Below, in pieces: positions 400 to 22,259 of a DNA stretch of 64,000 nucleotides. The first letter of the stretch is position 1. Each line of letters opens with the position of its first letter. The translations under genes were made by a program, and so were the position numbers. The notes beneath the pieces were generated by a model. It was given only the letters and a program-made list of their open reading frames with translations. It was not told where the DNA came from and made no database searches. This DNA is from an uncultured virus (IMG/VR IMGVR_UViG_3300032136_000003) (lineage: Duplodnaviria > Heunggongvirae > Uroviricota > Caudoviricetes), in the IMG/VR virus record IMGVR_UViG_3300032136_000003; one strand, written 5' to 3'.

Positions 400-490
400 G
401 ATTCACCCACCCAGGTTTGTCATGGGACCTGCTCCTGCGATTCCTAATTTATTCGGGATTATGCGGATCGCTGGTGGGTGAATCCTTTTT
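400..490 (+). ncRNA. helix-closed structured RNA element
   Basis: GATTCACCCACC (400-411) pairs perfectly with GGTGGGTGAATC (473-484); two internal hairpins; T-run after. Confidence 0.5.
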
Positions 491-587
491 AAACCTCACC
501 AGCCTAAAGGAAGACTGGCGCTCTTCCCCCCTTTTAAATACTAACAGTTAAACAATAAGTAGATTATATTATGAGGAGGCTTTACAT

Positions 588-800
588 ATGGCTGTAATAC
601 GAATACGAGTACCATCTAAGGACTGCACGTGCCTCGGGTGCGTGTATAACAACAACCCAGTTGCCTGTCACAACGCGCCAAGGTGCGAAGATTCAACGGG
701 CAGCTACAACTATGTGGAGAAAAACAACTATGAGAAGAAAAACAATACCGAAGGTAATTTTAGTGCCTTCAGACGACGGCTGCGGCGGGTGCTTGTATGA
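588..800 (+). CDS. small Cys-rich hypothetical protein
   Basis: GAGGAGG SD; CxGC motif. Confidence 0.6.
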   Translation: MAVIRIRVPSKDCTCLGCVYNNNPVACHNAPRCEDSTGSYNYVEKNNYEKKNNTEGNFSAFRRRLRRVLV

Positions 801-900
801 GCACGACAGGGACGGCTGCATTGAAGCCGACGACTGCTTCAACGAGAAATATTTACAAGAATGTATATTTGTTAAAGCGGAGGACAAAGAAGATGAGTAA
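730..900 (+). CDS. small Cys-rich acidic hypothetical protein
   Basis: ATG 730 after GGAG; CGGCLY resembles CLGCVY of the preceding gene. Confidence 0.5.
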   Translation: MRRKTIPKVILVPSDDGCGGCLYEHDRDGCIEADDCFNEKYLQECIFVKAEDKEDE

Positions 901-1102
901 GGTATTAAGATTTGAAACCATATGCGGGGTTAGTACGCGTACAGTAACGATACATGCGTCCAACGTCTTCTTAGAGCGTAAGGAAATGCCAGACGGCGTA
1001 TATAAATATTACGTCTTTGTAATACCTGAGGCGGAGGACTCTTCGTGGTACGCAATAGACGCAGAGACATATAATCGTCTCGACCGCGAAATGGATCACT
1101 GA
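893..1102 (+). CDS. hypothetical protein
   Basis: GGAGG SD before ATG 893 (internal start of ORF 797..1102). Confidence 0.6.
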   Translation: MSKVLRFETICGVSTRTVTIHASNVFLERKEMPDGVYKYYVFVIPEAEDSSWYAIDAETYNRLDREMDH

Positions 1103-1192
1103 TTACACGGGGTGCGCTAACGTCAACTCCTAGCACATCGCGTTCCTCGGCTCCCCGGCTCTCCGGGCCCCGTTCCCCGTTCCAAGCTTAAA

Positions 1193-1219
1193 GGTGAGGT
1201 AGCTCCTCACCCCCTTTTT
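1193..1219 (+). terminator. intrinsic terminator-like hairpin
   Basis: GGTGAGG-TAGCT-CCTCACC followed by CCC-TTTTT. Confidence 0.55.
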
Positions 1220-1226
1220 ATAAAAC

Positions 1227-1449
1227 AAAGCAACAGTGGCGGAAGATAGACGCTACAGTACCAGATAATCTTAAGTAAGGGTGATGCCTGAAAAAGAGAT
1301 TTGCCGAGTAACTTCGGAATTGTTTGCCGCATCTAGTAGAGGGTTCATCACCCCCACGGATCAATGGCATCGATTAAAACTGTCTGGAATTAGGCTCTGT
1401 CCGCGGAGGGCAGTAGGCCGTGCAGGTATCGAATCCTGTCTGTTGCTTT
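1227..1449 (+). ncRNA. tRNA-like RNA with about 115-nt insertion in the anticodon arm
   Basis: 10-bp terminal helix AAAGCAACAG/CTGTTGCTTT; Leu-type D arm TGGCGGAAGATAGACGC; long variable arm; T arm GCAGG-TATCGAAT-CCTGT. Confidence 0.7.
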
Positions 1450-1471
1450 CGTTTTACCTATTTTGATTTAT

Positions 1472-1543
1472 GGCAATAGGTAGGATGCGATACGCAGTGT
1501 AGTACTATAGATACACGTAAGTCAACGCATCCTGCCTGTTGCT
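1472..1543 (+). ncRNA. minihelix-like RNA sharing the 3' end of the tRNA-like family
   Basis: GGCAATAGGTAGGATGCG pairs with CGCATCCTGCCTGTTGCT (18 bp incl. G-U); 3' tail matches those ending at 1449 and 2128. Confidence 0.6.
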
Positions 1544-1555
1544 TTCATTTTTTGT

Positions 1556-1649
1556 GAGGATTCTGGCTCTGAACGCGCTATCGTGCGCGGTTATCTGACA
1601 ATAGCGAGGCTTAGTATGTCAGTACTGTAGCTGATTCAACCAGATCCTC
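1556..1649 (+). ncRNA. helix-closed multi-branch RNA element
   Basis: GAGGATTCTGG/CCAGATCCTC terminal helix; internal CGCGC/GTGCG and CTGACA/TGTCAG hairpins; T-run flanks. Confidence 0.5.
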
Positions 1650-1681
1650 CTCATTTTTATCAACACTAACGAGGAGAAATA

Positions 1682-1840
1682 ATGGCAACCTTATTAACTA
1701 TTATAGCCGGAGGGGCTATCGGCTTGGGGGCTGCACTGTTGACCGACCGTCCTATGAAAACACTAGGATATGCACTGTATGCCTGGGGCATAATAGGGAT
1801 ACTCCTGATACAGGGTGCGCGCCTGCTTGGTAGAATATAA
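1682..1840 (+). CDS. small two-helix membrane protein (52 aa, not in ORF track)
   Basis: GAGGAG SD; MATLLTIIAGGAIGLGAALLTDRPMKTLGYALYAWGIIGILLIQGARLLGRI. Confidence 0.7.
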   Translation: MATLLTIIAGGAIGLGAALLTDRPMKTLGYALYAWGIIGILLIQGARLLGRI

Positions 1841-1846
1841 CTTACA

Positions 1847-1873
1847 GCCGGGATAGTGACCCGGCCCATTTTT
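1847..1873 (+). terminator. repeated GCCGG hairpin, copy 1
   Basis: GCCGGG-ATAGTGA-CCCGGC then CCATTTTT; near-identical at 4318 and 5122. Confidence 0.6.
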
Positions 1874-1876
1874 ATT

Positions 1877-1992
1877 ATGTACAGAGTGACTCAACGAGTT
1901 GTTGCGGTGAGGAGCCTGTGAGAGTGTGGGCGCGTCCACATAAGTTCTCGAAGTTATGGGGTGGTTGTGGTGGTCATCCTCACTCTGTACAT
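1877..1992 (+). ncRNA. helix-closed structured RNA element
   Basis: 13-bp perfect terminal helix ATGTACAGAGTGA/TCACTCTGTACAT with internal hairpins. Confidence 0.55.
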
Positions 1993-2002
1993 ATTCATTT
2001 TT

Positions 2003-2128
2003 AGCAACGGTGGTGTAACAGAACACCTGGGTAACAGGCAGAGATAATAAGGGGCTCTCAAGCCTACATTAAAACTCTGACGGCCGGTTTATAAACGGAG
2101 CTGTAGGTATCGAATCCTACCCGTTGCT
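2003..2128 (+). ncRNA. tRNA-like RNA with extra arm and enlarged anticodon loop
   Basis: AGCAACGG/CCGTTGCT acceptor; D arm GTGT/ACAC; CAGAG/CTCTG stem; T arm GTAGG-TATCGAAT-CCTAC. Confidence 0.7.
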
Positions 2129-2158
2129 TTCATTTTAACAACTAACGAGGAGAACATC

Positions 2159-2425
2159 ATGGGAGACATGGCTGATATGCTGATTGCAGATGGTATGGAA
2201 TCCCTCTACAGCGGCTATATGGATTATGAAGAGGATAAATACGATCGCGTACGAAGGACGGCATCAGCTGGTGACAAATGTCACGCTTGTGATGATGGTA
2301 CTTACATTAAAAGAATAAACAGTTGCTCGGGAGTGACTTTCTTAGGTTGCAGTAGGTATCCTAAGTGCAGAAGCACAATTTCACACCGTTTTATAATAAC
2401 ACAAGGAGGATTAAATGAGTCTTAA
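2159..2425 (+). CDS. topoisomerase-type C4 zinc-ribbon protein
   Basis: CHACDDG...FLGCSRYPKCR matches the topoisomerase I C4 zinc-finger pattern. Confidence 0.65.
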   Translation: MGDMADMLIADGMESLYSGYMDYEEDKYDRVRRTASAGDKCHACDDGTYIKRINSCSGVTFLGCSRYPKCRSTISHRFIITQGGLNES

Positions 2426-4310
2426 CTACAAAGTCGGTGACCACGTTCACTACATGGCTAGCGGCCGTGACGCTGTTCTCGAGATAACTGACATTGACGA
2501 GTTTAACCAGATATATAGGATCAAACTCATCACAGACAATTTGAACGGAGAATATGACAAGAACCTTATGAATATTAAATCTCTTAAGGCGTTAGAAATG
2601 GCTTATCTTGAGAAGAACTCAGTTCTCTTGAGAAAGCCTGAACCTAAGCCTGAACCTAAGTCTAAGTATACACACAAGTTCAAAGTAGGCGATCTCGTTC
2701 ACTACTATCGAACAACAGACATGAAACGAGATGTCGTTCTGAAGATAACAGGGTTTATAGATGCTGATTATAAGGTGGCTACTGTCACAGACAAACTATA
2801 TAATTGGACTTTGAAATCCATATCAAGCGGGTGTTTAGATAAATTTGGTACTCGCATAGACGAGCCTGAACCTAAGCCTAAAGCTGAATACAAGTTCAAA
2901 ATAGGCGATTGCGTTCATTACTATCGAACAACGAACAAAAACAGAGACGTCGTTCTGAAGATAGAGGGTTTTATGAAGGCCGATTATAAAGTGTCTGTTG
3001 TCGAAGACAAACTAAATAATTGGACTATGAAATCCATTTTACGCTCGTGCTTAAATAAGTTTGGTACTCGAGTAAACGAGCCCAAGCCTGAACCTAAGCC
3101 TAAAGAGACGCATCACAAATTCAAAGTAGGAGATCGTATTCTGTTTAGTGACTCCGAGTTGCATGGTGAACTAGAAGTACTCGATATCTGTTATAACAAT
3201 AACAATTCAGGTACTAAGTTAATGTACGCTCTGAAACTCATAGCTGACTATTCTGATCACGACTTTAGCATAGTCGACTCTTCAACGTATGGAGGGACTG
3301 CAAGGTTTAATCGATACGTGTCTTACATAGACCGTCACTCTAGTCTGATAGCTAATCCTGAACCTAAGCCTAAGCCTAAGCCTAGGTTCAAGTACAAAGC
3401 AGGCGATCGTGTGCGGTTTCAAACCGCCGACAGAGACGCTGTCTTTGCGGTAAATGGTACCTACGGAAGTGAGGGCGATTATAATTATCACCTCCAGTTC
3501 ATTGAAGACTTCTATACAGGAGGCTTCAAGCCTCCCCCTGTGACTGATATAAACTATCTCGAAGCGAATTACTTAGAACGTAATTCTACTTTGTACAACG
3601 AAGCGCCTATGCCTGTGCCTGAAACTTCTTTCAAGAGCATAGACAAGTCTTGGCATTTGAAACAGGTAGAGGCTGTCTTAAAGAAGGGCTCAAACACCCC
3701 TAGACATGTCCAAGGTATGCTGTACATGGGTAAATATGGTGCGGCGTACTTGTTACATAACTACGGGGACTTCGTCAACGGATTCGAACCTATAGACAAA
3801 GACTATAGAGCAGGGGGGTGGAGAGACAAATACGCAGGCTCGTGGCATATAGGCTCAGTAAAAGAGGGTCTAGACCATCAATACTGTGACAGCATCAAAC
3901 TCATCGATAATCAAAACACGGAAGGTGAAGTATCTTCCACAACAACCAAAGAAGGAGAACCTAACATGTCAAAGATTAACATCAAGAAATTAGACAAGGC
4001 CCTAGCCGTAGCGAGGGACACACACAAAGCAGCAATAGAAGATTCACAGAAGGCCGCGAAAGTCGAAGCATTGGCTCTTGTAGAAAAGTTCTTCGAAAAG
4101 CAAGGCGCTGCCGTGCAGACTGAAGAGAAGGTGCTAGTTAGCACATCATCAGTAACATGTTCCGATTTCGACGACCTCAGAGCCCAGCTGGCCCTGTTGG
4201 ACGGCGATAGCGTCGACTCATCAGAGTTGATAAAGAACCCATTCACATTGATCAAGAACGCAGGCGCCTTGAACTCAGAGAAAAGGCACATTTCCATAAG
4301 TTCGTTCTAA
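2415..4310 (+). CDS. multidomain protein with five KOW/SH3-like repeats joined by PEPKPKP linkers
   Basis: Five (Y/F)KxGDxx modules separated by Pro/Lys/Glu linkers; strong SD. Confidence 0.7.
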   Translation: MSLNYKVGDHVHYMASGRDAVLEITDIDEFNQIYRIKLITDNLNGEYDKNLMNIKSLKALEMAYLEKNSVLLRKPEPKPEPKSKYTHKFKVGDLVHYYRTTDMKRDVVLKITGFIDADYKVATVTDKLYNWTLKSISSGCLDKFGTRIDEPEPKPKAEYKFKIGDCVHYYRTTNKNRDVVLKIEGFMKADYKVSVVEDKLNNWTMKSILRSCLNKFGTRVNEPKPEPKPKETHHKFKVGDRILFSDSELHGELEVLDICYNNNNSGTKLMYALKLIADYSDHDFSIVDSSTYGGTARFNRYVSYIDRHSSLIANPEPKPKPKPRFKYKAGDRVRFQTADRDAVFAVNGTYGSEGDYNYHLQFIEDFYTGGFKPPPVTDINYLEANYLERNSTLYNEAPMPVPETSFKSIDKSWHLKQVEAVLKKGSNTPRHVQGMLYMGKYGAAYLLHNYGDFVNGFEPIDKDYRAGGWRDKYAGSWHIGSVKEGLDHQYCDSIKLIDNQNTEGEVSSTTTKEGEPNMSKINIKKLDKALAVARDTHKAAIEDSQKAAKVEALALVEKFFEKQGAAVQTEEKVLVSTSSVTCSDFDDLRAQLALLDGDSVDSSELIKNPFTLIKNAGALNSEKRHISISSF

Positions 4311-4317
4311 ACTTAAT

Positions 4318-4344
4318 GCCGGAGTAGTGCTCCGGCCCATTTTT
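4318..4344 (+). terminator. repeated GCCGG hairpin, copy 2
   Basis: GCCGGAGTAGTGCTCCGGC then CCATTTTT. Confidence 0.6.
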
Positions 4345-4355
4345 CGATTTTAATT

Positions 4356-4439
4356 TCCGGGCGTGGTAAGCATTGACTTGACTTATCCTGAGCCCCGATG
4401 ACGTCGGGGGCCAGCTAGGTGAAAGACCTAGGCGTCGGG
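4356..4439 (+). ncRNA. three-arm tRNA-like RNA
   Basis: Imperfect terminal helix; GGTAAG/CTTATC arm; CCCCGAT/GTCGGGG arm; 5-bp/7-nt-loop T-like arm CTAGG-TGAAAGA-CCTAG next to the 3' strand. Confidence 0.5.
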
Positions 4440-4470
4440 TCTATTTATTAACAACTAACAAGGAATTAAT

Positions 4471-4719
4471 ATGGACATTATCGGCGAAGTACACGAAAAG
4501 TATAAAGACTTTATGTTGGACACTCCCCACGGAATGGGGCGCTCTCCTAATCTGTTATTGATGCCCCACGGCTTCATGCATGGATGGGTTGAAAAAATTA
4601 GGGGGCTACAGGGCTCGCGTTCCATTGAACTTATCAACACGTATATGGGAATGGACGTGGTACCCGTAGATATTAACGAGATAATTGTATGTTACAGAGT
4701 AAAAGGGGGAGACAAGTAG
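4471..4719 (+). CDS. hypothetical protein
   Basis: AAGGA SD in repeated leader. Confidence 0.65.
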   Translation: MDIIGEVHEKYKDFMLDTPHGMGRSPNLLLMPHGFMHGWVEKIRGLQGSRSIELINTYMGMDVVPVDINEIIVCYRVKGGDK

Positions 4720-5115
4720 ATGAAAAGAAAAACTAAACAAGTAAGCGACTGGATGTATTATGACCCTATATTAGAAGAGTTCTGTTTAGGGTTCCACGGT
4801 ATGTGTCTCAGCGGTATCCGAGAAGTCGTAGAACTTCCAGCGGGTACTCAGGCTATCAGGATTCACGTAAGCACAAAGAAGCAACATCCTCAGGATTTGT
4901 GGATTGATGTTGCTACTGAGCGCCACGGCAAGAAATCGAAATATAGCTGGCATCGAGTGCTTGATGCCGAGTCTTGCCGAAGCGGTGACTGGGCAATGCC
5001 GTTAGAAAGTACTCTCACTTATGGACTATTAGATTTACTGATCGGAGACTTGATTCCCTTAGACGACAGCTTATTCGAATTCACAAGACTATACTACCAC
5101 ATCGAATACAAATAA
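4720..5115 (+). CDS. hypothetical protein
   Basis: Abuts upstream stop; GGGGGAG SD. Confidence 0.65.
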   Translation: MKRKTKQVSDWMYYDPILEEFCLGFHGMCLSGIREVVELPAGTQAIRIHVSTKKQHPQDLWIDVATERHGKKSKYSWHRVLDAESCRSGDWAMPLESTLTYGLLDLLIGDLIPLDDSLFEFTRLYYHIEYK

Positions 5116-5121
5116 CTTACA

Positions 5122-5148
5122 GCCGGAGTAGTGCTCCGGCCCACTTTT
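5122..5148 (+). terminator. repeated GCCGG hairpin, copy 3
   Basis: GCCGGAGTAGTGCTCCGGC then CCACTTTT. Confidence 0.6.
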
Positions 5149-5152
5149 ATTT

Positions 5153-5248
5153 AGAGAGTAGGCCATAAAAGCGTCTTCGGACGTAGGCTGATCGTAAGGG
5201 GCCTGCCTTGTGGGATATCGTGCCCTGAAAAACCCACACCTACTCTCT
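5153..5248 (+). ncRNA. helix-closed multi-branch RNA with cUUCGg tetraloop
   Basis: AGAGAGTAGG/CCTACTCTCT terminal helix; GCGTC-TTCG-GACGT; GTGGG/CCCAC arm. Confidence 0.55.
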
Positions 5249-5280
5249 TTCACTTTATTAACAACTAACAAGGAATTAAT

Positions 5281-5481
5281 ATGTCTATAGAACTAAAATC
5301 AGTGATGAGCCTCGAACTAGAAAACAGGGATGGCGGACTGCTTCTTTGCGAAGATGAGGATAATAACTGTTACCTCGTGCTCGAGGCTGACACGTTTCTC
5401 AATAAGGAAGTGTTTAAGGACCTAGGAAGTACGGAGCACATAGCTATATCTAGAGAAGCCTTCGACGCTTTGTCAAGTTAA
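5281..5481 (+). CDS. small acidic hypothetical protein
   Basis: Same leader as 4471. Confidence 0.65.
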   Translation: MSIELKSVMSLELENRDGGLLLCEDEDNNCYLVLEADTFLNKEVFKDLGSTEHIAISREAFDALSS

Positions 5482-5503
5482 CTAAACAAAATAGGAGAAA
5501 AAT

Positions 5504-5791
5504 ATGCCCGGTTTAATGGATGTAGTAGCACCACCGTCTGAGACCTTCGAGGATATGCTAGAAGACTTCGACTGTGCGGGTGAGAGAATATACCCAGATT
5601 GCGACAAAATGCACGTCTGTCAATGGCCTGACGGCACGTGGTGCGGCCTGGACGAGATTGACAACTATTCGTGGATGAGCGACGACTATGAAGTCATAGC
5701 CGTCGATGCGAGTACGCCTGACATAGATACTTTTCTATTTCAGAGGGCTCACGGATTGAGTATAAAACGATTCAAACAGAGGAAATCATAA
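5504..5791 (+). CDS. acidic hypothetical protein (WPDGTWC motif)
   Basis: AGGAG SD. Confidence 0.65.
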   Translation: MPGLMDVVAPPSETFEDMLEDFDCAGERIYPDCDKMHVCQWPDGTWCGLDEIDNYSWMSDDYEVIAVDASTPDIDTFLFQRAHGLSIKRFKQRKS

Positions 5792-5800
5792 ATAAAGAAT

Positions 5801-5841
5801 AGCCCCCGTTCCACGTTCCAACGATCCAGTGGAACGGGGCT
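5801..5841 (+). other. GC-rich hairpin after gene
   Basis: AGCCCC(C)GTTCCAC / GTGGAACGGGGCT. Confidence 0.5.
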
Positions 5842-5937
5842 CCTCATAACGATTTTTCAAGCTAACATTGGTTTTTAACACAAAATGCAAGGTAAATACG
5901 TGAATATTTACATAAAATACAAGGTAAAAGGAGTAAT

Positions 5938-6129
5938 ATGACACCGACAAGCAGGGCAAAAATCAGAATAATGCTTCATTGCGACAGAATAAGTCGCTTA
6001 ATATCTTCTATAGACAACTGGAATGCTATCATTAACAGGTTGTCTGACGAGGATGAAGACATAAAAGCCTTCGCAAGGCTGAGAATATCGGACCTGGAAG
6101 CCGAACTCGCTTTGTTAAAAGAAATTTGA
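5938..6129 (+). CDS. small coiled-coil hypothetical protein
   Basis: AAGGAG SD. Confidence 0.6.
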   Translation: MTPTSRAKIRIMLHCDRISRLISSIDNWNAIINRLSDEDEDIKAFARLRISDLEAELALLKEI

Positions 6130-6136
6130 TTTGTAT

Positions 6137-6211
6137 GGGGTGCGATTAGTTCAGTGGCAGAACTGTCTTTTGCGCTAGATAAGTCGCCGGTTCGATTCCG
6201 GCATCCACCCC
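6137..6211 (+). tRNA. atypical or pseudo-tRNA (anticodon ambiguous, TGC or GCG)
   Basis: D arm GTTC-AGTGGCA-GAAC; canonical T arm GCCGG-TTCGATT-CCGGC; acceptor with bulged C; 8-nt anticodon loop; no encoded CCA. Confidence 0.6.
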
Positions 6212-6319
6212 TCTTTTGATTTATTGGCTCGTCATTTATGACGAATTAAACCTGAATATTAACTTAATTCGCCATATATGTCCATATAAAGTGGACATAC
6301 GTGTGCATAAACTAGGAGT

Positions 6320-6508
6320 ATGATGATAGATATAACATTCAAAGTAGGGGTCACAGCGGCAGTGATAGCCGCGGCCTTTTTGTGCCTCACTAACGTTCTT
6401 ATTGAAATTAGAGCGAGAGATGGGGTGTGGATAACGTTCTCTTGGCTGACCATTCTGTCAACTTGTATAACGATAATCTATTTCCTCAAATGGATATGGG
6501 GGTTATGA
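6320..6508 (+). CDS. small two-TM membrane protein
   Basis: Two hydrophobic stretches; AGGAG SD. Confidence 0.65.
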   Translation: MMIDITFKVGVTAAVIAAAFLCLTNVLIEIRARDGVWITFSWLTILSTCITIIYFLKWIWGL

Positions 6509-6831
6509 TGACACTCGAAGAAGTACAGAAATTAACTGATGATGAGCTACGAATTAAAGTGGCTGAGTTATGCCCACTTAATAAATGGGCAGATTTAGAG
6601 TGGGCATTGTATCGTACTAGAACGCATACTAACCCGAACTATACCCAAGACCTCAACGCTATGCACGAGGCTGAGAAGTTACTCAACGACGTTCAATACG
6701 CAGAGTACTCTCGTTTTGTCGGCGCTGGACATACTGGAGCGCGTCACGGGCTCACTGATAAATGTGCGGCGATGTTCGCAACAGCAAGACAAAGGGCAGA
6801 AGCCTTTGTATTAACAATGGAGGAATTGTAA
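6505..6831 (+). CDS. phage protein, DLNAMHxAE family, paralog 1
   Basis: ATGA overlap; shares MTLEEVQ, DLNAMH and ATARQRAEAFVLT blocks with next gene. Confidence 0.7.
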   Translation: MMTLEEVQKLTDDELRIKVAELCPLNKWADLEWALYRTRTHTNPNYTQDLNAMHEAEKLLNDVQYAEYSRFVGAGHTGARHGLTDKCAAMFATARQRAEAFVLTMEEL

Positions 6832-7151
6832 TGACACTAGAAGAAGTACAAGCCCTCAGTGATGATGAACTAAACGCAATCATGGATGAGTTAACGGATA
6901 TTCACAAAGGATATGATTGGGTTAGAGACCTCAACGCTATGCACAAGGCTGAGCAGTCGCTTACCGGTGAACAGTTCTTGGTCTACTTGGATAACCTGAT
7001 ATCAATAACAACAGGAACCGAGACAGGAATTAAGGTAATACTTGCAACAGCGAGACAAAGGGCAGAAGCCTTTGTCTTAACTAAAGAAAATGAACGCCTC
7101 TCATCTTTGGCTGATGAAATATTGGATGAGAAAGAAACCGAAAACAAATAA
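6831..7151 (+). CDS. phage protein, DLNAMHxAE family, paralog 2
   Basis: GGAGG SD, TAATG overlap; tandem paralog. Confidence 0.7.
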   Translation: MTLEEVQALSDDELNAIMDELTDIHKGYDWVRDLNAMHKAEQSLTGEQFLVYLDNLISITTGTETGIKVILATARQRAEAFVLTKENERLSSLADEILDEKETENK

Positions 7152-7238
7152 CCACACCCCACACTATTCGGGCCCACCTATCTAAGCGGGGTTTACGCTC
7201 GTTTTCCTCGCTCGTTTGGCCCGAGTGGGGGTGGTTAT
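7148..7238 (+). ncRNA. long hairpin RNA element
   Basis: ATAACCAC/GTGGTTAT, CCCCAC/GTGGGG and TTCGGGCC/GGCCCGAG stacked helices. Confidence 0.5.
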
Positions 7239-7247
7239 CCTTTTATT

Positions 7248-7367
7248 GCAACGGAGGGGTGGCGCCCTGACAACTATTTCTCCCGCCTCTATCCCTTCTG
7301 GAAATCTCCTGCGGAGATTAAGGGGTATGCTTGCGGAGATTAGCTGTTGCCCGCCAGGGCCCGTTGC
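7248..7367 (+). ncRNA. structured RNA closed by GCAACGG/CCGTTGC
   Basis: Same terminal helix sequence as the tRNA-like RNA at 2003; GCCCTG/CAGGGC and AATCTCC/GGAGATT helices. Confidence 0.55.
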
Positions 7368-7423
7368 CCCTTTGATTTTTGTAGTGTACGAAACAATGAA
7401 ACAAAAAACTAAACAGGAGTAAT

Positions 7424-7603
7424 ATGACAGATTTAGAAAAGTTAGAAGAGGTTTTCATGGAACTCAACATTGATTACGACGTTGACGAGATGAACGACCA
7501 AAAATTCATTACAATATCAGACGAGGGTGAGGAATGTACCACCATCGTAACACGTTTCAAGTTCAACGATTTAGGGGAGTATCAATACTTCTCAATAATT
7601 TAA
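7424..7603 (+). CDS. small acidic protein (59 aa, not in ORF track)
   Basis: AGGAG SD; MTDLEKLEEVFMELNIDYDVDE... Confidence 0.65.
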   Translation: MTDLEKLEEVFMELNIDYDVDEMNDQKFITISDEGEECTTIVTRFKFNDLGEYQYFSII

Positions 7604-7610
7604 TAATTTT

Positions 7611-7675
7611 CGCGCCCACCCTCCTTCTTTTATGTTGGACACTACTTCTCGATACTGTAGGAAAGGGTGGGCGTG
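7611..7675 (+). ncRNA. helix-closed RNA element
   Basis: CGCGCCCACCCT/AGGGTGGGCGTG 12-bp helix. Confidence 0.45.
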
Positions 7676-7693
7676 ATACGACTTAAGGAGCAT

Positions 7694-8197
7694 ATGAACA
7701 TAATATTCGTATCAGGAATAATGCACGGTGGGAAATCCCACTATATCAAACAAGAATTGTCTCAGTACCCAGTCTATGATTTGTGGGACTATCAGGAGAA
7801 TTGCGAATCGCGGATGGACGTATACAGAAGCTATGTCCAGCTGTCTAACGCCCTTAGGATTAAGTGTGTCCTCGCGAAGCCCGATGATACCATAGTCGTT
7901 GAGCATACGTTGGCTAAGGCCAAGCGTAGGCTCTGGTATTTGAAACGCCTCCCAAAGAATGCTCACAAACAGATTAGGTGGGTTAATCCTTCTAAAGAGG
8001 AGTTTATAAAAATATGGGTAAGGGACGCAACACACCACAACAAGCATTTGAGCCCGAGATGGGTAAGCCAGATGTGGGACGCGTGGCAAGAACAGGCCGA
8101 ACCACCTGATCTTGATGAGGGTTGGGACTCGATTATAGAGGTCAGTCCCATCATAGACTACGACGCTGAACTATTACATAAACAATGGATAAGATAA
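7694..8197 (+). CDS. P-loop kinase (AAA_33 / polynucleotide-kinase-like)
   Basis: N-terminal IIFVSGIMHGGKS Walker A; C-terminal EPPxxxEGWD typical of this family. Confidence 0.6.
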   Translation: MNIIFVSGIMHGGKSHYIKQELSQYPVYDLWDYQENCESRMDVYRSYVQLSNALRIKCVLAKPDDTIVVEHTLAKAKRRLWYLKRLPKNAHKQIRWVNPSKEEFIKIWVRDATHHNKHLSPRWVSQMWDAWQEQAEPPDLDEGWDSIIEVSPIIDYDAELLHKQWIR

Positions 8198-8206
8198 AGG
8201 AGAATT

Positions 8207-8353
8207 ATGGCTGAAGCAAAAGGATTGAAGAAGTTAAGATCTCAGACAGGCAAAACACCGACCCACAAGTGTGATAACTGTGGCTGTATGAGATACTCGC
8301 CGTGCAAATGCCAGATCAAGGCCAGCACTACCAAAGAGCCCGCCGAGAATTAG
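8207..8353 (+). CDS. small basic zinc-binding protein (48 aa, not in ORF track)
   Basis: AAGGAG SD; CDNCGC...CKC. Confidence 0.6.
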   Translation: MAEAKGLKKLRSQTGKTPTHKCDNCGCMRYSPCKCQIKASTTKEPAEN

Positions 8354-8360
8354 GCTCTAT

Positions 8361-8396
8361 CGGGCCTCGGTTACATGCGTAACCGGGGCTCGTTTT
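8361..8396 (+). terminator. intrinsic terminator
   Basis: 14-bp stem CGGGCCTCGGTTAC/GTAACCGGGGCTCG + TTTT. Confidence 0.7.
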
Positions 8397-8399
8397 CAA

Positions 8400-8429
8400 T
8401 TTATGTTGTGAACGAAACTATTTATTAAT
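8400..8429 (+). repeat. 30-bp direct repeat, copy 1 (candidate phage promoter or leader)
   Basis: TTTATGTTGTGAACGAAACTATTTATTAAT identical at 9453-9482. Confidence 0.7.
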
Positions 8430-8448
8430 CAAAATAAGGAATGATATA

Positions 8449-9072
8449 ATGGAGGATTGTTATACAAAAAAGGATCTCCCCTTGGGGAGTTATTGGATCA
8501 ACTTGACCACAAGCAGAGACCCAAATTTCTGGGCGGCGGTGCAAGTAATCTCGCATCACGCCGAGGATGATCGGATTAGGCTCCGCATAATTGCGAGAGA
8601 CTCGAACCCGAGCGGACGTCGTACCAAACAACGAGATATACGTGTAGTGGCTGGTGATGCTTGGTTTAACAAATCACTGCTACTACCCTTCTACGCGCCA
8701 CCGTCTCAGAAATTCTTGGATCGTCACGAGATGGAACTCGTGGGGGTTGGTCCGGTAAGCGGTGAAAAGGTGCGCGCCTTCTATTCAAAGGACGGCCGTG
8801 CGGTAATAGGAGGCATAGGCGGCGACTGGAGACAGTGGACCGCGTTCGCTGAAGGTTGGAGATACCTTCTCAAACCCACTAGTGAGAAAGAATCAGAATT
8901 TACGGATGATTATGACTATGGGGCTACTTTCTCTATGAAACTAGACCGGACACAAATTCAGGAATCAAACCCATTCGTAGCTCATTTTGACAACGAGCCT
9001 ACGATAGCAGAAATGATCAGTAATGGAGCTAGACAAACGATAGTCCACCCCGAGTGTGGCGTGGTTTCTTAA
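8449..9072 (+). CDS. hypothetical protein
   Basis: AAGGA SD after the repeat. Confidence 0.65.
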   Translation: MEDCYTKKDLPLGSYWINLTTSRDPNFWAAVQVISHHAEDDRIRLRIIARDSNPSGRRTKQRDIRVVAGDAWFNKSLLLPFYAPPSQKFLDRHEMELVGVGPVSGEKVRAFYSKDGRAVIGGIGGDWRQWTAFAEGWRYLLKPTSEKESEFTDDYDYGATFSMKLDRTQIQESNPFVAHFDNEPTIAEMISNGARQTIVHPECGVVS

Positions 9073-9103
9073 CAAACAATAACACAAAACGAGGAGTAAC
9101 ATT

Positions 9104-9421
9104 ATGCAGGTAATCACAGTAAACGGCGAACAGTATCTCGGCGAGATCAAAGATACTAAAGACGGTAAGGTAGTGTCTGAAGCACTTCAGATCGAAAAGA
9201 GTAACGGCGATGTGGCTGCGTCAACATTCGCCACATATATTACATCCAGGAATGTAGGAGATTTGAATACTCTCACGGTTGCAGGCCCTGTGGTCTCATC
9301 TGTACGTGATCTCCGTCCAGTTGAGGCAGAGAGACTGGCTAATCTTGAAGCCAAGTTTAATAGAGCTAAAGAGCTGGCCATTCCAAAACTGGTCAACGAC
9401 ACGTTCTTGAGCCTGAGATAA
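9104..9421 (+). CDS. hypothetical protein
   Basis: GAGGAG SD. Confidence 0.7.
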   Translation: MQVITVNGEQYLGEIKDTKDGKVVSEALQIEKSNGDVAASTFATYITSRNVGDLNTLTVAGPVVSSVRDLRPVEAERLANLEAKFNRAKELAIPKLVNDTFLSLR

Positions 9422-9427
9422 CTATAC

Positions 9428-9455
9428 GCGGGGGCGAAATACCCCCGCCCATTTT
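9428..9455 (+). terminator. intrinsic terminator-like hairpin
   Basis: GCGGGGG/CCCCCGC + CCATTTT. Confidence 0.6.
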
Positions 9456-9482
9456 ATGTTGTGAACGAAACTATTTATTAAT
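9453..9482 (+). repeat. 30-bp direct repeat, copy 2
   Basis: Identical to 8400-8429. Confidence 0.7.
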
Positions 9483-9501
9483 TAAAATGAAGGAGATAGA
9501 C

Positions 9502-9609
9502 ATGCATTACTGTCCATTCTGCGGCAGCGAACAAATAGAAAAGCTAGAAGATGGCTTCTACGAATGCCTTGATTGTGATGAGGAGTTCCACGAAGACAAT
9601 GAATACTGA
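9502..9609 (+). CDS. 35-aa acidic zinc ribbon (not in ORF track)
   Basis: AAGGAG SD; MHYCPFCGS...YECLDCDEEF. Confidence 0.65.
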   Translation: MHYCPFCGSEQIEKLEDGFYECLDCDEEFHEDNEY

Positions 9610-9618
9610 GGAGAATAA

Positions 9619-9888
9619 ATGAAAGGATCAATGTTAAATCGGTTTAAAGTGGGACAACGGGTTATGTTCCGCACAAACATAGGGACTGACGTTTTTGTCG
9701 AGAAAAAGATTGACAATGGGAGGAAAAGTGTTAAGGTGTTCTCCCATAAAAACAATATATTCGTTGAAGACTTCGGCCGCATTGTAAAACTTCACAGGTC
9801 GGGAACGCATGGATCAGCTGAAATACGCCCCGAAGACGGAGGTAAGAAATTATGCCGGAAACTACAACACGTAACGGAAGTTAAATAG
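9619..9888 (+). CDS. KOW/SH3-like small protein
   Basis: FKVGQRV motif; GAGGAG SD. Confidence 0.55.
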   Translation: MKGSMLNRFKVGQRVMFRTNIGTDVFVEKKIDNGRKSVKVFSHKNNIFVEDFGRIVKLHRSGTHGSAEIRPEDGGKKLCRKLQHVTEVK

Positions 9889-10081
9889 TATGTATACATC
9901 AATGAAAACAGAGTTCACTATAGCCATGGGCTCCCTCATAGCGATATTACTTTCGCTGCTAATGCTCGGGGGTTAGCCATGGAATATAAGTTATCAAACT
10001 GCCCTTACTCTACAGTTCGCTGTTCAGAGGTGGGCAAGGGTAAGTGCGAATCGTGTAATATAAAACAAGCTAAGGAGACAG

Positions 10082-10456
10082 ATGACAAACGAAGAACTGA
10101 CAGAAAAGTACAAAGATAGAATCACAGATCCCATTGAGATGCAAGGGGTTATGAATGTCAACTACAGACCACACCCTTACACAGTTGGGCCTAAGCACAT
10201 AAAGCACGCTCATGATAATCACGGCGGCCTCCTCGGAGATGAGACCGTTAAAGAAGTCCCATGTGCCGCAGAGGGGTGCGGGCTCCCATACGAGGAACAC
10301 ACCTTTGATAGGGTGATGTTCGTCAAGTTGACTCGGGCATGTACGTCTGACGAAGTTCAATCCGTATTGAAACTCGTTGCGGATGATGCTGAGAGCGATA
10401 AAATAGACGGGTTCGGGTTCGTGGAAACTCCCGAAAAATTCAGAATGCAAGACTAA
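10082..10456 (+). CDS. hypothetical His/Cys protein
   Basis: AAGGAG SD. Confidence 0.65.
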   Translation: MTNEELTEKYKDRITDPIEMQGVMNVNYRPHPYTVGPKHIKHAHDNHGGLLGDETVKEVPCAAEGCGLPYEEHTFDRVMFVKLTRACTSDEVQSVLKLVADDAESDKIDGFGFVETPEKFRMQD

Positions 10457-10462
10457 AAACGT

Positions 10463-10520
10463 GCGGGCTGCGTAAGTTCCTCAAGAGCACGAGAGTGCGC
10501 TAACGCAGGCAGCAGTCCGC
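10463..10520 (+). ncRNA. helix-closed RNA element with GNRA hairpin
   Basis: GCGGGCTGC/GCAGTCCGC; GCAC-GAGA-GTGC; T-run after. Confidence 0.45.
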
Positions 10521-10541
10521 CTCTTTTTAAGGAGACTAGAT

Positions 10542-10976
10542 ATGTCACCTAACACAAGCATACCAGAACTACGGGGAGACCTTAGGGCTGTGTACAGGTC
10601 ACTGCTTCATTGGAGGCAGGACCATAAAAAATTAAAACTCTTTGGTGGGGTGAAGCCTTTCGCCAAAGTATTCAACAATGAACAATGTCCCATGTGCCAG
10701 CGCCATCGGACCGAGCACAGAGTATATGGGCACAAACACCCATGTGGCCGGTGTCCACTAGATTGTACTATGGGTAGCGCATTCGGCAAGGCTTGGTTCG
10801 CCAACGTACTCCCCCTATTTGCCGAGAGGCGAAGAAAGAAATTCAACAGCGCTCGAGAGCAGATTGTAGGGACGTTGCTCGACGAACAACTTAGGCTGGA
10901 GAGTCTACTAAAGGAAGCGTTAGTAAATGAACAAACAGAAGCGGCGGTCTCTCGTTTAGGGGGTGTTGAAAGATGA
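10542..10976 (+). CDS. Cys-rich hypothetical protein
   Basis: CPMC...CGRCPL; AAGGAG SD. Confidence 0.65.
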   Translation: MSPNTSIPELRGDLRAVYRSLLHWRQDHKKLKLFGGVKPFAKVFNNEQCPMCQRHRTEHRVYGHKHPCGRCPLDCTMGSAFGKAWFANVLPLFAERRRKKFNSAREQIVGTLLDEQLRLESLLKEALVNEQTEAAVSRLGGVER

Positions 10977-13880: not shown

Positions 13881-14140
13881 GCAGATTAATATGTGATTCT
13901 TGCGGAAAGCAATTTGTGATAGGGAACTTAGAGAGTTACCAAGACTTAGAACAACATGCTAAAAAGCACGGCTGGACATTTATAGAAGATGTGCTTTGTT
14001 CTAAGTGTATTCCCGATTGCGAAATGTCTGTCAAGATAAACGGACTATGGACAGAGTGGACGCCTGAAAGACCTGTTAATTACGGTGTTGAGGTAAAATA
14101 TAGGATGACAAAAGTAAAGGAAGAAAGCGAGGAAGGATGA
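13877..14140 (+). CDS. zinc-binding hypothetical protein ending ESEEG
   Basis: CDSC...CSKC; ATGA overlaps. Confidence 0.65.
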   Translation: MSRLICDSCGKQFVIGNLESYQDLEQHAKKHGWTFIEDVLCSKCIPDCEMSVKINGLWTEWTPERPVNYGVEVKYRMTKVKEESEEG

Positions 14141-22092: not shown

Positions 22093-22259
22093 TGGCAAGC
22101 GGAGGAAGCGCATTCTCCACATGGAGAGTGCGCTGTAAGTGTGGCCACGAGTTCAATACCAAAGTAGGTACTCCTACATGCAGTCGCTGTTATGCAGAGT
22201 CTGGAATGGAGTACCTATATCAGGTGAGGGATAAGAAAACTCGTAAGCCTCGCTACTGA
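22092..22259 (+). CDS. small zinc-ribbon protein (55 aa, not in ORF track)
   Basis: TAATG overlap; CKCGHEF...CSRC. Confidence 0.55.
   Translation: MASGGSAFSTWRVRCKCGHEFNTKVGTPTCSRCYAESGMEYLYQVRDKKTRKPRY

What the first reader, a model, noticed from the sequence alone, without database searches (positions are those of the whole stretch)
400..10520. Early region carries an array of about 13 distinct helix-closed small structured RNAs
Seen: most large intergenic gaps hold a 60-220 nt element whose ends pair in a 7-18 bp helix, with internal hairpins and T/AT-rich flanks (400, 1107, 1227, 1472, 1556, 1877, 2003, 4356, 5153, 6137, 7148, 7248, 7611, 10463). Several sit back to back (1227/1472/1556, 1877/2003, 7148/7248). 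Their interiors are mostly unrelated, so this is not a simple repeat family. Established: phage tRNA clusters are cut from AU-rich spacers, and phage RNA decoys exist (pseudo-ToxI, RNA anti-CRISPRs). Inference: a variable repertoire of small stable RNAs released from early transcripts, perhaps decoys or inhibitors of RNA-sensing or RNA-cleaving defences.
Basis: partly seen in the sequence, partly recalled or inferred. Interest (0 to 1): 0.88.

Follow-up and report, generated by a model that had tools for sequence, protein, structure and literature searches.

The report
Phage tRNA-like scaffold RNAs, variable middles
Two of the structured elements in this phage region belong to a widespread, apparently undescribed family of phage tRNA-like RNAs that keep tRNA-style ends but carry a highly variable middle, while most of the other listed elements are real structures of unproven status and some are ordinary terminator hairpins.

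Summary
Long-range perfect helices of at least 10 bp are about 14-fold enriched in the early intergenic gaps: 5 found against 0.36 expected. Eleven of the 12 elements folded close as described; 1107 does not, and 6137 is an odd tRNA.

The elements are heterogeneous. Elements 1230-1447 and 2004-2128 have a 7-bp acceptor-like helix, a tRNA-Leu-like D arm without GG, and a T arm with an 8-nt loop. Between these lies a 168- or 76-nt non-anticodon middle. The same scaffold occurs in more than 120 IMG/VR loci, 7 JGI contigs, 8 genome records and cultured phages such as E. coli phage phAPEC8.

When the helix strands are fixed by the D and T motifs alone, 53 of 68 distinct elements pair 7/7, against 3% with shuffled partners, using 44 different helix sequences. 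Near-identical phages keep flanks and scaffold but have unalignable middles. Rfam and ARAGORN do not recognise the long forms.

Six units (the two members, 1473, 1556, 1876, 5152) share a trailer motif: 6 of its 7 occurrences in the window lie just after their closing helices. The remaining items are hairpin-plus-U modules or stand-alone structures without comparative support.

Expression, processing and any decoy role are untested.

The parts
401..483 (+). Helix-closed three-way element with an 11-12 bp terminal helix, followed by CCTTTTT. Its ends resemble those of 7148-7238.
   Evidence: 12-bp perfect stem 400-411/473-484. z -3.89 on +, -3.54 on -. No homologue found.
1107..1173 (+). Claimed element that is not supported as helix-closed.
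   Evidence: z -1.02; the minimum-energy fold does not pair the ends.
1193..1211 (+). GC-rich hairpin plus T run. A weaker copy of the repeated stop-codon-proximal hairpin module, 18 nt upstream of element 1230.
   Evidence: Terminator-like scan; repeat family D3.
1230..1447 (+). tRNA-like scaffold RNA, member A (218 nt). It has acceptor-like helix GCAACAG/CTGTTGC, then TG, a 3-bp D stem with a loop lacking GG, a 168-nt branched middle, a T arm with an 8-nt loop, and a TTCGTTTT trailer.
   Evidence: Covariance model R1 scores 67.5 bits, E 2.4e-16, but it was a training sequence. D-arm and T-arm motifs match IMG/VR and JGI members. z -2.90. No Rfam or ARAGORN hit.
1473..1542 (+). 17-bp hairpin (two G-U pairs). 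Its 3' strand is a 72%-identical copy of the T-arm and acceptor 3' end of member A, and it has the same trailer.
   Evidence: Repeat D6; inverted repeat I2. z -6.96 on +, -3.27 on -. Not a hit to R1.
1556..1649 (+). Helix-closed multi-branch element with a 10-bp terminal helix, followed by CTCATTTTT.
   Evidence: z -3.00; trailer motif.
1847..1865 (+). Repeated hairpin module (ATAACTTACA, hairpin, CCCATTTT) 7 nt after a stop codon and 10 nt before element 1876.
   Evidence: families D3, D7.
1876..1993 (+). Helix-closed element with a 14-bp perfect terminal helix and three internal hairpins, followed by a TTCATTTTT trailer.
   Evidence: Stem found. z -2.26 on +, -3.24 on -. Trailer.
2004..2128 (+). 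tRNA-like scaffold RNA, member B (125 nt). It has acceptor-like helix GCAACGG/CCGTTGC, a D stem GTG/CAC, a 76-nt middle, the same T arm and a TTCATTTT trailer.
   Evidence: R1 scores 60.0 bits, E 2.8e-14, but it was a training sequence. z -2.84.
4318..4336 (+). Repeated hairpin module, 20 nt before element 4357.
4357..4439 (+). Helix-closed four-way (cloverleaf-shaped) prediction that is specific to the + strand.
   Evidence: z -3.35 on +, -0.96 on -. No homologue.
5122..5140 (+). Repeated hairpin module, 11 nt before element 5152.
5152..5247 (+). Helix-closed element with a 10-bp perfect helix and three hairpins, followed by a TTCACTTTA trailer.
   Evidence: z -2.58; trailer.
6137..6211 (+). 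tRNA gene with an 8-nt anticodon loop and an irregular acceptor stem.
   Evidence: ARAGORN reports an anticodon of four bases. Rfam tRNA 33.5 bits against a threshold of 29.
7148..7238 (+). Long helix-closed single-arm element, followed by CCTTTTAT.
   Evidence: z -5.71 on +, -5.06 on -.
7248..7367 (+). Four-way prediction closed by the same GCAACGG/CCGTTGC helix as member B, but without its D or T motifs.
   Evidence: z -2.85. Not a hit to R1.
7610..7676 (+). Long irregular hairpin just upstream of the ribosome-binding site of ORF 7694-8197. No T run follows it.
   Evidence: z -5.09 on +, -4.24 on -.
10463..10520 (+). Hairpin plus CTCTTTTT, terminator-like.
   Evidence: z -2.30 on +, -0.62 on -.

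Best explanation
The region holds a mixed set of RNA structures, not one array of 13 equivalent RNAs.

(1) Elements 1230-1447 and 2004-2128 are genes for tRNA-like scaffold RNAs. Each has a 7-bp acceptor-like helix, a tRNA-Leu-type D arm without the GG dinucleotide, and a T arm with an 8-nt loop. These frame a long, non-anticodon, lineage-variable middle arm.

Inferred mechanism: they are transcribed on the + strand within the small-ORF transcripts. The host tRNA-processing machinery then cuts them out, RNase P at the 5' side of the helix and trimming at the U-rich trailer, with CCA added or not. The tRNA-like ends give processing and stability, and the variable arm is the working part.

(2) 1473-1542 is a hairpin derived from a partial duplication of member A. 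Together with 1556, 1876 and 5152 it shares the same trailer and AU-rich flanks, so these are probably released or terminated in the same way as separate units.

(3) 6137-6211 is an unusual tRNA.

(4) The GC hairpin-plus-U modules after stop codons (1193, 1847, 4318, 5122, 8361, 9428), and 7610 and 10463, are most simply transcription-end or leader structures.

What is shown: the structures, family membership, covariation of the acceptor-like helix, variability of the middle, and the trailer association. What is inferred: transcription, excision, stability and any function acting on other molecules.
For: Family membership and spread:
- An exact scan for the T arm plus acceptor found 7 homologous JGI contigs with the same D arm and a 13-bp closing helix.
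- An IMG/VR scan for the T arm alone stopped at its 120-locus limit.
- An exact scan for the D arm gave 79 further IMG/VR loci. Of their 81 matches, 27 are followed first by the 8-nt T loop, and 19 of those 27 pair 7/7 in the acceptor-like helix.

Unbiased helix test:
- The strands were fixed only by the D and T motifs.
- Of 129 T-arm matches, 44 lacked the D motif within 300 nt. The rest gave 68 distinct elements.
- 53 pair 7/7 and 8 pair 6/7. With shuffled partners, 3.1% pair 7/7.
- The 53 fully paired elements use 44 different 5' strands.

On alignment A2 (40 rows, pre-selected for at least 6 of 7 pairs):
- 98.7% of cells are paired, against 35-43% when the partner is slid.
- 138 cells are changed on both sides, against 35 +/- 5.5 in shuffles; 0 of 500 shuffles reach this.

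Not decoding tRNAs:
- 4 of 66 members have even an anticodon-arm-like hairpin after the D arm.
- ARAGORN calls the element in 1 of 60 loci.
- Rfam gives only sub-threshold tRNA scores, 28.3 and 27.6 bits, for two short members.

tRNA-gene context:
- 17 of 60 loci carry tRNA or tmRNA genes within 1.5 kb.
- In phAPEC8 an unannotated member lies between tRNA-Asn and tRNA-Thr, with gaps of 7 and 6 nt.
- 66 of 84 nearest ORFs are on the same strand as the element.

Variable middle:
- In the lineage with acceptor helix GGATGGG, flanks are 67-98% identical and scaffolds 96-100% identical.
- Its middles are 30-49% identical, with lengths of 50-132 nt.
- The lineages with acceptor helices GCAGCCG and GAGTGTG show the same pattern. 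In the AGCAAGG lineage, two of the three pairs do (see the Against line).

Virus-enriched: 14 hits in 185,579 prokaryote genomes, 8 of them with the full scaffold.

Trailer: 6 of the 7 occurrences of YTCRYTTTW in the window lie 0-2 nt after the closing helices of six units.

Enrichment of long-range helices in the gaps.
Against: - There is no RNA evidence of any kind. The three sequencing runs that hold the window are DNA.
- No relative of this phage's early region exists in the collections searched. Two early proteins are singletons. Nothing outside the two members could therefore be tested for covariation.
- R1 finds no further member in the window; the best other hit scores 11 bits.
- Most elements fold about as well on the reverse strand.
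- The family was retrieved with exact motifs. Its conserved T and D sequences are therefore partly by construction, and its true limits are unknown: 44 of 129 T-arm hits lack the D motif, and 41 of 81 D-arm hits show no recognised T loop within the DNA held.
- One lineage pair (L104 and L115) has an 85%-identical middle, so the middle is not always replaced.
- Only 18 nt separate hairpin 1193-1211 from member A. It must therefore be read through or started from an unrecognised promoter.
- No conserved neighbouring gene points to a partner.
Confidence: 0.55

Rival explanations
1. All the elements act only on their own transcript. They would be intrinsic terminators with enlarged stems, RNase processing sites, and structures that stabilise the 5' or 3' ends of the small-ORF mRNAs. 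The two tRNA-like ones would be decayed tRNA genes kept only as processing or termination punctuation.
For: - Ten of 12 elements are followed within 10 nt by a T-rich run.
- Six share one trailer motif.
- Terminator-like sites are enriched: 19 found against 8.3 +/- 3.3 in shuffles.
- The elements sit exactly between ORFs.
- Most fold equally well on both strands.
- No partner gene is conserved next to family members.
- tRNA-like punctuation of transcripts is known from organelles (my knowledge).
Against: - Punctuation does not explain why D-arm and T-arm sequences stay nearly invariant across very different phages while the middle is replaced.
- It does not explain why members sit inside tRNA arrays that already supply processing sites.
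- It does not explain tandem or multiple copies per genome (window; L250, L274 and L243/L244).
- Canonical hairpin terminators already stand just upstream of four of the elements.
Confidence: 0.28
2. This is the first reader's specific reading: the RNAs are decoys or inhibitors of host defences that sense or cleave RNA, for example tRNA-targeting nucleases or enzymes that modify tRNA ends.
For: - The acceptor and T-arm part of a tRNA is kept without an anticodon arm.
- The middles vary fast between near-identical phages, as expected in an arms race.
- The phage encodes an RNA ligase (Pfam PF09414, 39.2 bits; phrog_548). One family member lies next to an RNA ligase and another next to a tRNA nucleotidyltransferase.
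- Phage tRNAs that counter tRNA-cleaving defences are established (my knowledge).
Against: - No defence target is identified and the host is unknown.
- Only 2 of the 66 neighbouring proteins examined are tRNA-repair or tRNA-maturation enzymes.
- A decoy for anticodon nucleases would need an anticodon loop, which is absent.
Confidence: 0.12
3. The elements act at the DNA level. They would be recombination or attachment sites, miniature inverted-repeat mobile elements, or integron-attC-like or retron-like cassette boundaries.
For: - The ends are conserved inverted repeats (GCAAC... and ...GTTGC) around variable interiors.
- Mosaic breakpoints in L083 against L089 fall at the element and at the gene downstream.
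- A contig of run X1 breaks at window position 1575.
Against: - G-U pairs that would be A-C on the other strand occur in 1473 and in the JGI helix.
- Covariation maintains pairing, not sequence, with 44 different helices.
- An attachment site would copy only the 3' part of a host tRNA with a normal T loop.
- No integrase or reverse transcriptase turned up among the window ORFs scanned. That scan did not cover every ORF.
Confidence: 0.05

Closest known systems
Phage T4 stable RNAs species 1 and 2 (rnaC, rnaD) in the tRNA cluster
   Same: They are phage-encoded small stable RNAs of unknown function next to tRNA genes (annotated in NC_000866). rnaC carries a T arm followed by an acceptor-like 3' end. 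They are longer than a tRNA and not decoding tRNAs.
   Different: R1 does not hit rnaC or rnaD at E <= 1; only T4 tRNA-Leu (20.8 bits) and tRNA-Ser (14.9 bits) score. The rnaC T loop is the normal 7 nt. No family with a variable middle is known for them. That they are processed like tRNAs is recalled, not tested here.
Canonical tRNA (Rfam RF00005), especially class II tRNA-Leu
   Same: They share a 7-bp acceptor helix stacked on a 5-bp T stem, a two-nucleotide linker, and a D arm whose sequence resembles that of bacterial tRNA-Leu (recalled). One member, L185, even has the GG-containing form. Members also sit inside tRNA arrays.
   Different: There is no anticodon arm (4 of 66 have anything similar). 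The T loop has 8 nt, the D loop lacks GG, and lengths run from 66 to about 250 nt. These RNAs fall below the Rfam threshold or go undetected, and ARAGORN of 60.
tmRNA tRNA-like domain
   Same: The ends form an acceptor helix with a T arm, and a large non-tRNA insert replaces the anticodon arm. Phage tmRNAs lie next to members in L134 and L140.
   Different: ARAGORN finds no tmRNA at these elements. Position 3:70 is A-U in the window members, not G-U. The insert is far smaller and has no conserved pseudoknot or tag layout; a tag frame was not tested.
Bacterial and phage YrlA Y RNAs (tRNA mimics bound by Ro60/Rsr)
   Same: They are noncoding RNAs with D-like and T-like arms plus another module, they also occur in phages, and they are RNase P and CCA-adding substrates in one species (PMC4201824; abstract and passages read).
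   Different: The topology is permuted. In YrlA the stem between T and D is a closed stem-loop and the RNA ends lie in the Ro-binding helix. In these elements the ends form the acceptor-like helix. There is no Rfam hit. A neighbouring Ro60 gene was not seen among the proteins scanned, and it was not searched for specifically.
Engineered tRNA scaffolds for expressing recombinant RNA
   Same: The design principle is the same: a cargo RNA placed where the anticodon arm would be, in a tRNA frame, so that it is processed and protected. This is recalled from the literature, not from a call.
   Different: That is a laboratory construct based on normal tRNAs. The elements reported here are natural, have an altered D-loop and T-loop corner, and their processing is unproven.

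Membership tests
Phage tRNA-like scaffold family with 8-nt T loop (defined here) | 7-bp terminal helix directly abutting a 5-bp T stem with loop TATCGAAT | tested here: met
   Window 1230-1447 and 2004-2128. The helix covaries in the family. 1473-1542 and 7248-7367 lack the T arm and are not hit by R1.
Phage tRNA-like scaffold family with 8-nt T loop (defined here) | TG linker, then a 3-bp D stem with an 8-10 nt loop ending in AGA and lacking GG | tested here: met
   Member A matches the family consensus exactly. Member B has GTG/CAC, a change on both sides of one pair.
Phage tRNA-like scaffold family with 8-nt T loop (defined here) | Variable middle without an anticodon arm | tested here: met
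   The middles are 168 and 76 nt, with no 5-bp stem and 7-nt loop after the D arm.
Canonical tRNA (RF00005) | Score at or above the Rfam threshold; cloverleaf with an anticodon arm | tested here: not met
   No hit at E <= 10 for 1230-1447 or 2004-2128, and none from ARAGORN. Only 6140-6209 passes (33.5 bits), and it has an 8-nt anticodon loop.
tmRNA | ARAGORN or Rfam tmRNA detection; G3:U70 pair; tag reading frame | tested here: not met
   No tmRNA call. The 3:70 pair is A-U. A tag frame was not examined.
YrlA / Y RNA | Order T arm, closed stem-loop, D arm, with the RNA ends in a Ro-binding helix; Ro60 gene nearby | tested here: not met
   The opposite topology is seen. No Rfam hit. A Ro60 neighbour was not specifically searched for.
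T4 rnaC/rnaD-type stable RNAs | Sequence or structure similarity to T4 species 1 and 2 RNAs | tested here: not met
   R1 over the T4 tRNA region hits tRNA-Leu and tRNA-Ser only. The likeness is in kind, not in family.
Intrinsic (rho-independent) terminator | Short GC-rich hairpin immediately followed by a T run | tested here: met
   Met by 1193-1211, 1847-1865, 4318-4336, 5122-5140, 8361-8392 and 9428-9448. The large helix-closed elements have a T run but a multi-branch stem, so the scan does not cover them. Whether any of these terminates transcription cannot be tested here.
Integron attC site / retron noncoding RNA | Integrase or reverse transcriptase in the locus; core-site consensus (attC, recalled) | tested here: not met
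   No such protein was found among the window ORFs scanned. Only the AAC and GTT triplets of the recalled consensus are present.

The most novel reading that the evidence does not exclude
Phages from many environments and hosts, including cultured E. coli phages of the phAPEC8 group, encode a previously undescribed class of natural tRNA-scaffolded RNAs. A conserved, altered tRNA frame delivers a rapidly exchanged cargo arm. The cargo would be a lineage-specific effector (a decoy, sponge or guide) used against the host or against competing elements. The window phage would carry at least two, and up to six, such units in one early RNA island.
Probability: 0.3. Interest if true: 0.85.

Novelty: new variant of a known kind. 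Interest (0 to 1): 0.62.

Why it matters
Phage tRNA genes are usually read as codon-usage helpers or, more recently, as replacements for tRNAs destroyed by host defences. This result points to a large set of tRNA-derived genes that standard tRNA finders and Rfam miss and that cannot decode. Their middle part changes completely between otherwise near-identical phages.

If these are stable, processed RNAs, they would be a natural counterpart of the laboratory tRNA scaffold and a new pool of phage RNA effectors. They would also be directly testable, because cultured E. coli phages carry members. In addition, unannotated gaps in phage tRNA clusters would need re-annotation.

Tried and rejected
- **Close relatives of the window.** Megablast and blastn against 50,697 phage records found nothing. 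tblastn with the helicase found nothing. DNA polymerase matched only at 24-27% identity. Two early proteins are singletons in 5.8 billion protein clusters. Helicase relatives in IMG/VR are 28-40% identical and lack the motifs. Covariation of the non-tRNA-like elements therefore could not be tested.
- **Whole genome and earlier findings.** Neither was available.
- **Sequencing runs.** No RNA holder is listed; three sediment DNA runs hold the window. Laying their contigs showed no variant letters, so there is no population variation to exploit.
- **Rfam.** No family other than tRNA matched, at the gathering threshold or at E <= 10.
- **An N4-like reading.** I considered that the hairpin modules might be hairpin promoters for a virion RNA polymerase. 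I could not support it. The 5,540-aa ORF shows only a Dda/PIF1-like helicase domain and no RNA polymerase family. The LUZ7 rule, a G start 13-14 nt after the hairpin centre (PMC9163698, passages), is not met by eye. The modules remain terminator-like by scan only.
- **Antisense targets.** Matches between the middle or interior sequences and the window are at chance level.
- **Other window gaps against all fetched loci.** blastn-short matched only the D and T arms.
- **ORF 7694-8197.** It looked to me like a P-loop kinase, but it has no Pfam, PHROG or PDB sequence match. That idea is dropped.
- **The RNA ligase.** It has no PDB sequence match.
- **Strict coupling of the GG-less D loop with the 8-nt T loop.** This does not hold. 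Of 81 exact D-arm matches, 27 are followed first by the 8-nt loop, 13 by a normal 7-nt loop, and 41 by neither within the DNA held.
- **Literature.** Searches found no description of this family. The motif strings themselves occur only in unrelated primer lists. A 2023 catalogue of 10,006 viral structured-RNA candidates mentions tRNA-like candidates (PMC10690425, passages read). I did not open its supplement, so it may include this family.

Full report
**Setting**

The window comes from an 83.6-kb contig of an unclassified tailed phage found in sediment DNA runs. Genes identified:
- rIIA/rIIB-like genes, a family A DNA polymerase, a superfamily II helicase and an exonuclease.
- An RNA ligase.
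- A 5,540-aa ORF with only a helicase domain recognised.

Positions 588-10976 hold about 22 small + strand ORFs. None has a firm family, and the two tested have no relatives at all. I first took the phage for N4-like, but no RNA polymerase domain was found, so I do not use that label.

Largely, yes.
- The gaps fold better than shuffles.
- In a window-wide count of perfect long-range helices (at least 10 bp, 30-230 nt between arms), 5 of 15 fall in the 2,508 nt of early gaps. The expected number there is 0.36, and the rest of the window is at expectation.
- Folded alone, 11 of 12 elements close as described. The exception is 1107-1173 (z -1.02).
- 6137-6211 is a tRNA hit with an 8-nt anticodon loop.
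- Most elements fold nearly as well as their reverse complements. Thermodynamics alone therefore does not show the strand. G-U pairs favour the + strand for 1473, 4357 and 10463.

The interiors are unrelated, but the ends are not.
- Four elements share one closing helix.
- Three share a 36-nt 3' module.
- The trailer motif YTCRYTTTW occurs only 7 times in 64 kb, where 11.5 are expected. Six of these lie 0-2 nt after the closing helices of 1230, 1473, 1556, 1876, 2004 and 5152.
- A separate repeated module of conserved upstream bases, a GC hairpin and CCCATTTT follows stop codons at 1847, 4318 and 5122. It precedes an element by 10-20 nt.

**What the two best elements are**

By eye, elements 1230-1447 and 2004-2128 show four features:
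- a 7-bp terminal helix;
- a TG linker;
- a 3-bp D-like stem (GCG/CGC in one, GTG/CAC in the other);
- a hairpin with loop TATCGAAT that abuts the 3' strand of the terminal helix.

Together these amount to a tRNA frame with a 168- or 76-nt insert where the anticodon and variable arms would be. Rfam and ARAGORN find nothing there.

An exact metagenome scan for the T arm plus acceptor returned 13 loci. Seven are true homologues with the same D arm and a 13-bp closing helix containing a G-U pair. The other six look like chance matches in coding DNA.

Scanning IMG/VR for the T arm alone hit the 120-locus limit, and most hits carry the same D arm.

**Covariation**

To avoid choosing helices by their pairing, I fixed the 5' strand as the 7 nt before the D motif and the 3' strand as the 7 nt after the T arm.
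- Of 129 T-arm matches, 44 had no D motif within 300 nt. The rest gave 68 distinct elements.
- 53 pair 7/7 and 8 pair 6/7.
- With shuffled partners, 3.1% pair 7/7.
- The 53 fully paired elements use 44 different 5' strands, and every one of the 7 positions shows several pair types.

On a 40-row MAFFT alignment (rows pre-selected for at least 6 of 7 pairs), 98.7% of cells pair, against 35-43% with slid partners. Cells changed on both sides number 138, against 35 +/- 5.5 in shuffles.

A covariance model from that alignment scores the two window elements at 67.5 and 60.0 bits. They were training rows. Nothing else in the window scores above 11 bits. So 1473, 7248 and the tRNA at 6137 are not members by this test.

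**Nature of the family**

- Lengths run from 66 to about 250 nt.
- Only 4 of 66 members have anything like an anticodon arm after the D arm.
- Short members score just under the Rfam tRNA threshold.
- ARAGORN of 60 elements, a tRNA-Lys-like one.
- Some members have a hairpin inserted in the D loop.
- Five of the 53 fully paired elements have CCA after the discriminator position.
- 17 of 60 loci have tRNA or tmRNA genes within 1.5 kb.
- In E. coli phage phAPEC8 an unannotated 77-nt member (33.5 bits) lies between tRNA-Asn and tRNA-Thr.
- About 90 phage records in INPHARED carry the exact T arm. They are mainly Escherichia phages, plus Lactobacillus and Streptomyces phages, one of them annotated tRNA-OTHER.
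- Prokaryote genomes are poor in it: 14 hits in 185,579 genomes, 8 with the whole scaffold, in Acidobacteriota, Bacteroidia and others.
- Neighbouring genes are diverse. They include one RNA ligase, one tRNA nucleotidyltransferase and queuosine-pathway genes among 66 proteins, and 66 of 84 nearest ORFs are co-oriented with the element.

Selecting by the D arm instead gives 79 loci and 81 matches. Of these, 27 are followed first by the 8-nt T loop, 13 by a normal T loop, and 41 by neither within the DNA held. The family's borders are therefore wider and less clear than my motif suggests.

**The variable middle**

In related phages the flanks and the scaffold are conserved while the middle cannot be aligned.
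- In the GGATGGG lineage (named by its acceptor helix), upstream flanks are 67-93% identical and downstream flanks 88-98%.
- Its scaffolds are 96-100% identical.
- Its middles are 30-49% identical, with lengths of 50-132 nt.
- The JGI pair L083 and L089 shows the same pattern, and the gene downstream is also swapped.
- One pair (L104 and L115) keeps an 85%-identical middle, with a compensating change in one hairpin.
- The window repeats the pattern within one genome: same helix and trailer, different middles.

**Mechanism**

What is shown: structure, family membership, covariation and context.

What I infer: the units are transcribed on the + strand with the small ORFs. They are excised by tRNA-processing enzymes at the acceptor-like helix and the U-rich trailer. 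The tRNA frame confers processing and stability on a variable working arm, a natural analogue of laboratory tRNA scaffolds (recalled).

The D loop lacks GG and the T loop has an extra base. The corner of the L shape is therefore probably altered, which could keep these RNAs out of translation. This is speculation.

A decoy role against tRNA-directed defences is possible. The phage has an RNA ligase, but there is no direct support. The middles show no better-than-chance complementarity to the window.

**The remaining elements**

Elements 401, 4357, 7148, 7248, 7610 and 10463 are real predicted structures without relatives. Their status as separate RNAs, leaders or terminators is open. The GC hairpin modules fit the terminator scan. 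Their conserved flanks are unusual for terminators, which I note but cannot explain.

**Comparison with known systems**

- Closest in kind are the T4 species 1 and 2 stable RNAs. They sit in the tRNA cluster but are not hit by the model.
- The tmRNA tRNA-like domain is similar in layout, but there are no ARAGORN calls and no G3:U70 pair.
- YrlA Y RNAs have a permuted topology.
- Recently described bacterial tRNA mimics such as skipping-rope are also related in kind (abstract only). They are recalled to be Rfam families, and Rfam gave no hit.
- I found no paper describing this scaffold (searches listed under Tried and rejected). A 2023 catalogue of viral structured-RNA candidates may contain it in a supplement I did not open.

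**Verdict**

The finding is partly right and more specific than proposed. It is not 13 equivalent RNAs. There are two solid members of a large phage tRNA-like family with variable middles, four further units tied to them by a shared trailer, one odd tRNA, and several ordinary or unresolved hairpins.

Noticed in passing
window 6137-6211: A tRNA gene with an 8-nt anticodon loop (ARAGORN reports a four-base anticodon) and an irregular acceptor stem. It could be a frameshift-type tRNA or another tRNA-like RNA.
   Followed up: partly
window 8397-8435 and 9450-9488 (similar at about 7375-7400): A 39-nt direct repeat, 95% identical, lies just after hairpin-plus-U modules and before ORFs. It is a candidate phage promoter or leader signal.
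   Followed up: no
window 4444-4473 and 5254-5283 (similar at 2135-2151 and 1660-1676): An identical 30-nt leader and ribosome-binding sequence precedes two different ORFs.
   Followed up: no
window 1837-1876, 4308-4347, 5112-5151: The hairpin modules share conserved bases upstream of the stem and CCCA downstream of it. This is unusual for plain terminators, and a second role as a promoter or processing site is not excluded.
   Followed up: partly
window 33699-50321 (- strand): A 5,540-aa ORF in which only a Dda/PIF1-like helicase domain is recognised, at roughly residues 3400-3840.
   Followed up: partly
window 2415-4310: A 631-aa protein built from 216-nt tandem repeats joined by proline/glutamate/lysine-rich linkers. 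It is a singleton in the protein collection.
   Followed up: no
window 25050-25916 and 23219-23851: An RNA ligase (Pfam PF09414, phrog_548) and a GP88/phrog_1392 protein. The same two PHROG families occur next to family members in L103 and L099.
   Followed up: partly
window about 1575: Contigs of run X1 break at this position, inside element 1556-1649, with mean depth 21.5 to the left and 13.5 to the right. This may be a strain branch point or a genome end.
   Followed up: no
window 13944-14006 and 22165-22217: Two further long-range perfect helices (11 and 10 bp) lie outside the reported region.
   Followed up: no
L250, L274, and L243/L244 (one contig): Some phages carry two exact copies of the D arm, either 170 nt apart or 5 kb apart. 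This indicates tandem or multiple members per genome.
   Followed up: no
L088 - strand 2768-2143: An unrelated phage has a 625-nt noncoding stretch with back-to-back helix-closed hairpins followed by T runs, ending in a family member upstream of a PAPS-reductase-like gene. The layout resembles window 1103-2158.
   Followed up: partly
window 6505-6831 and 6831-7151: Two adjacent paralogous small ORFs share several repeats at 77-95% identity.
   Followed up: no
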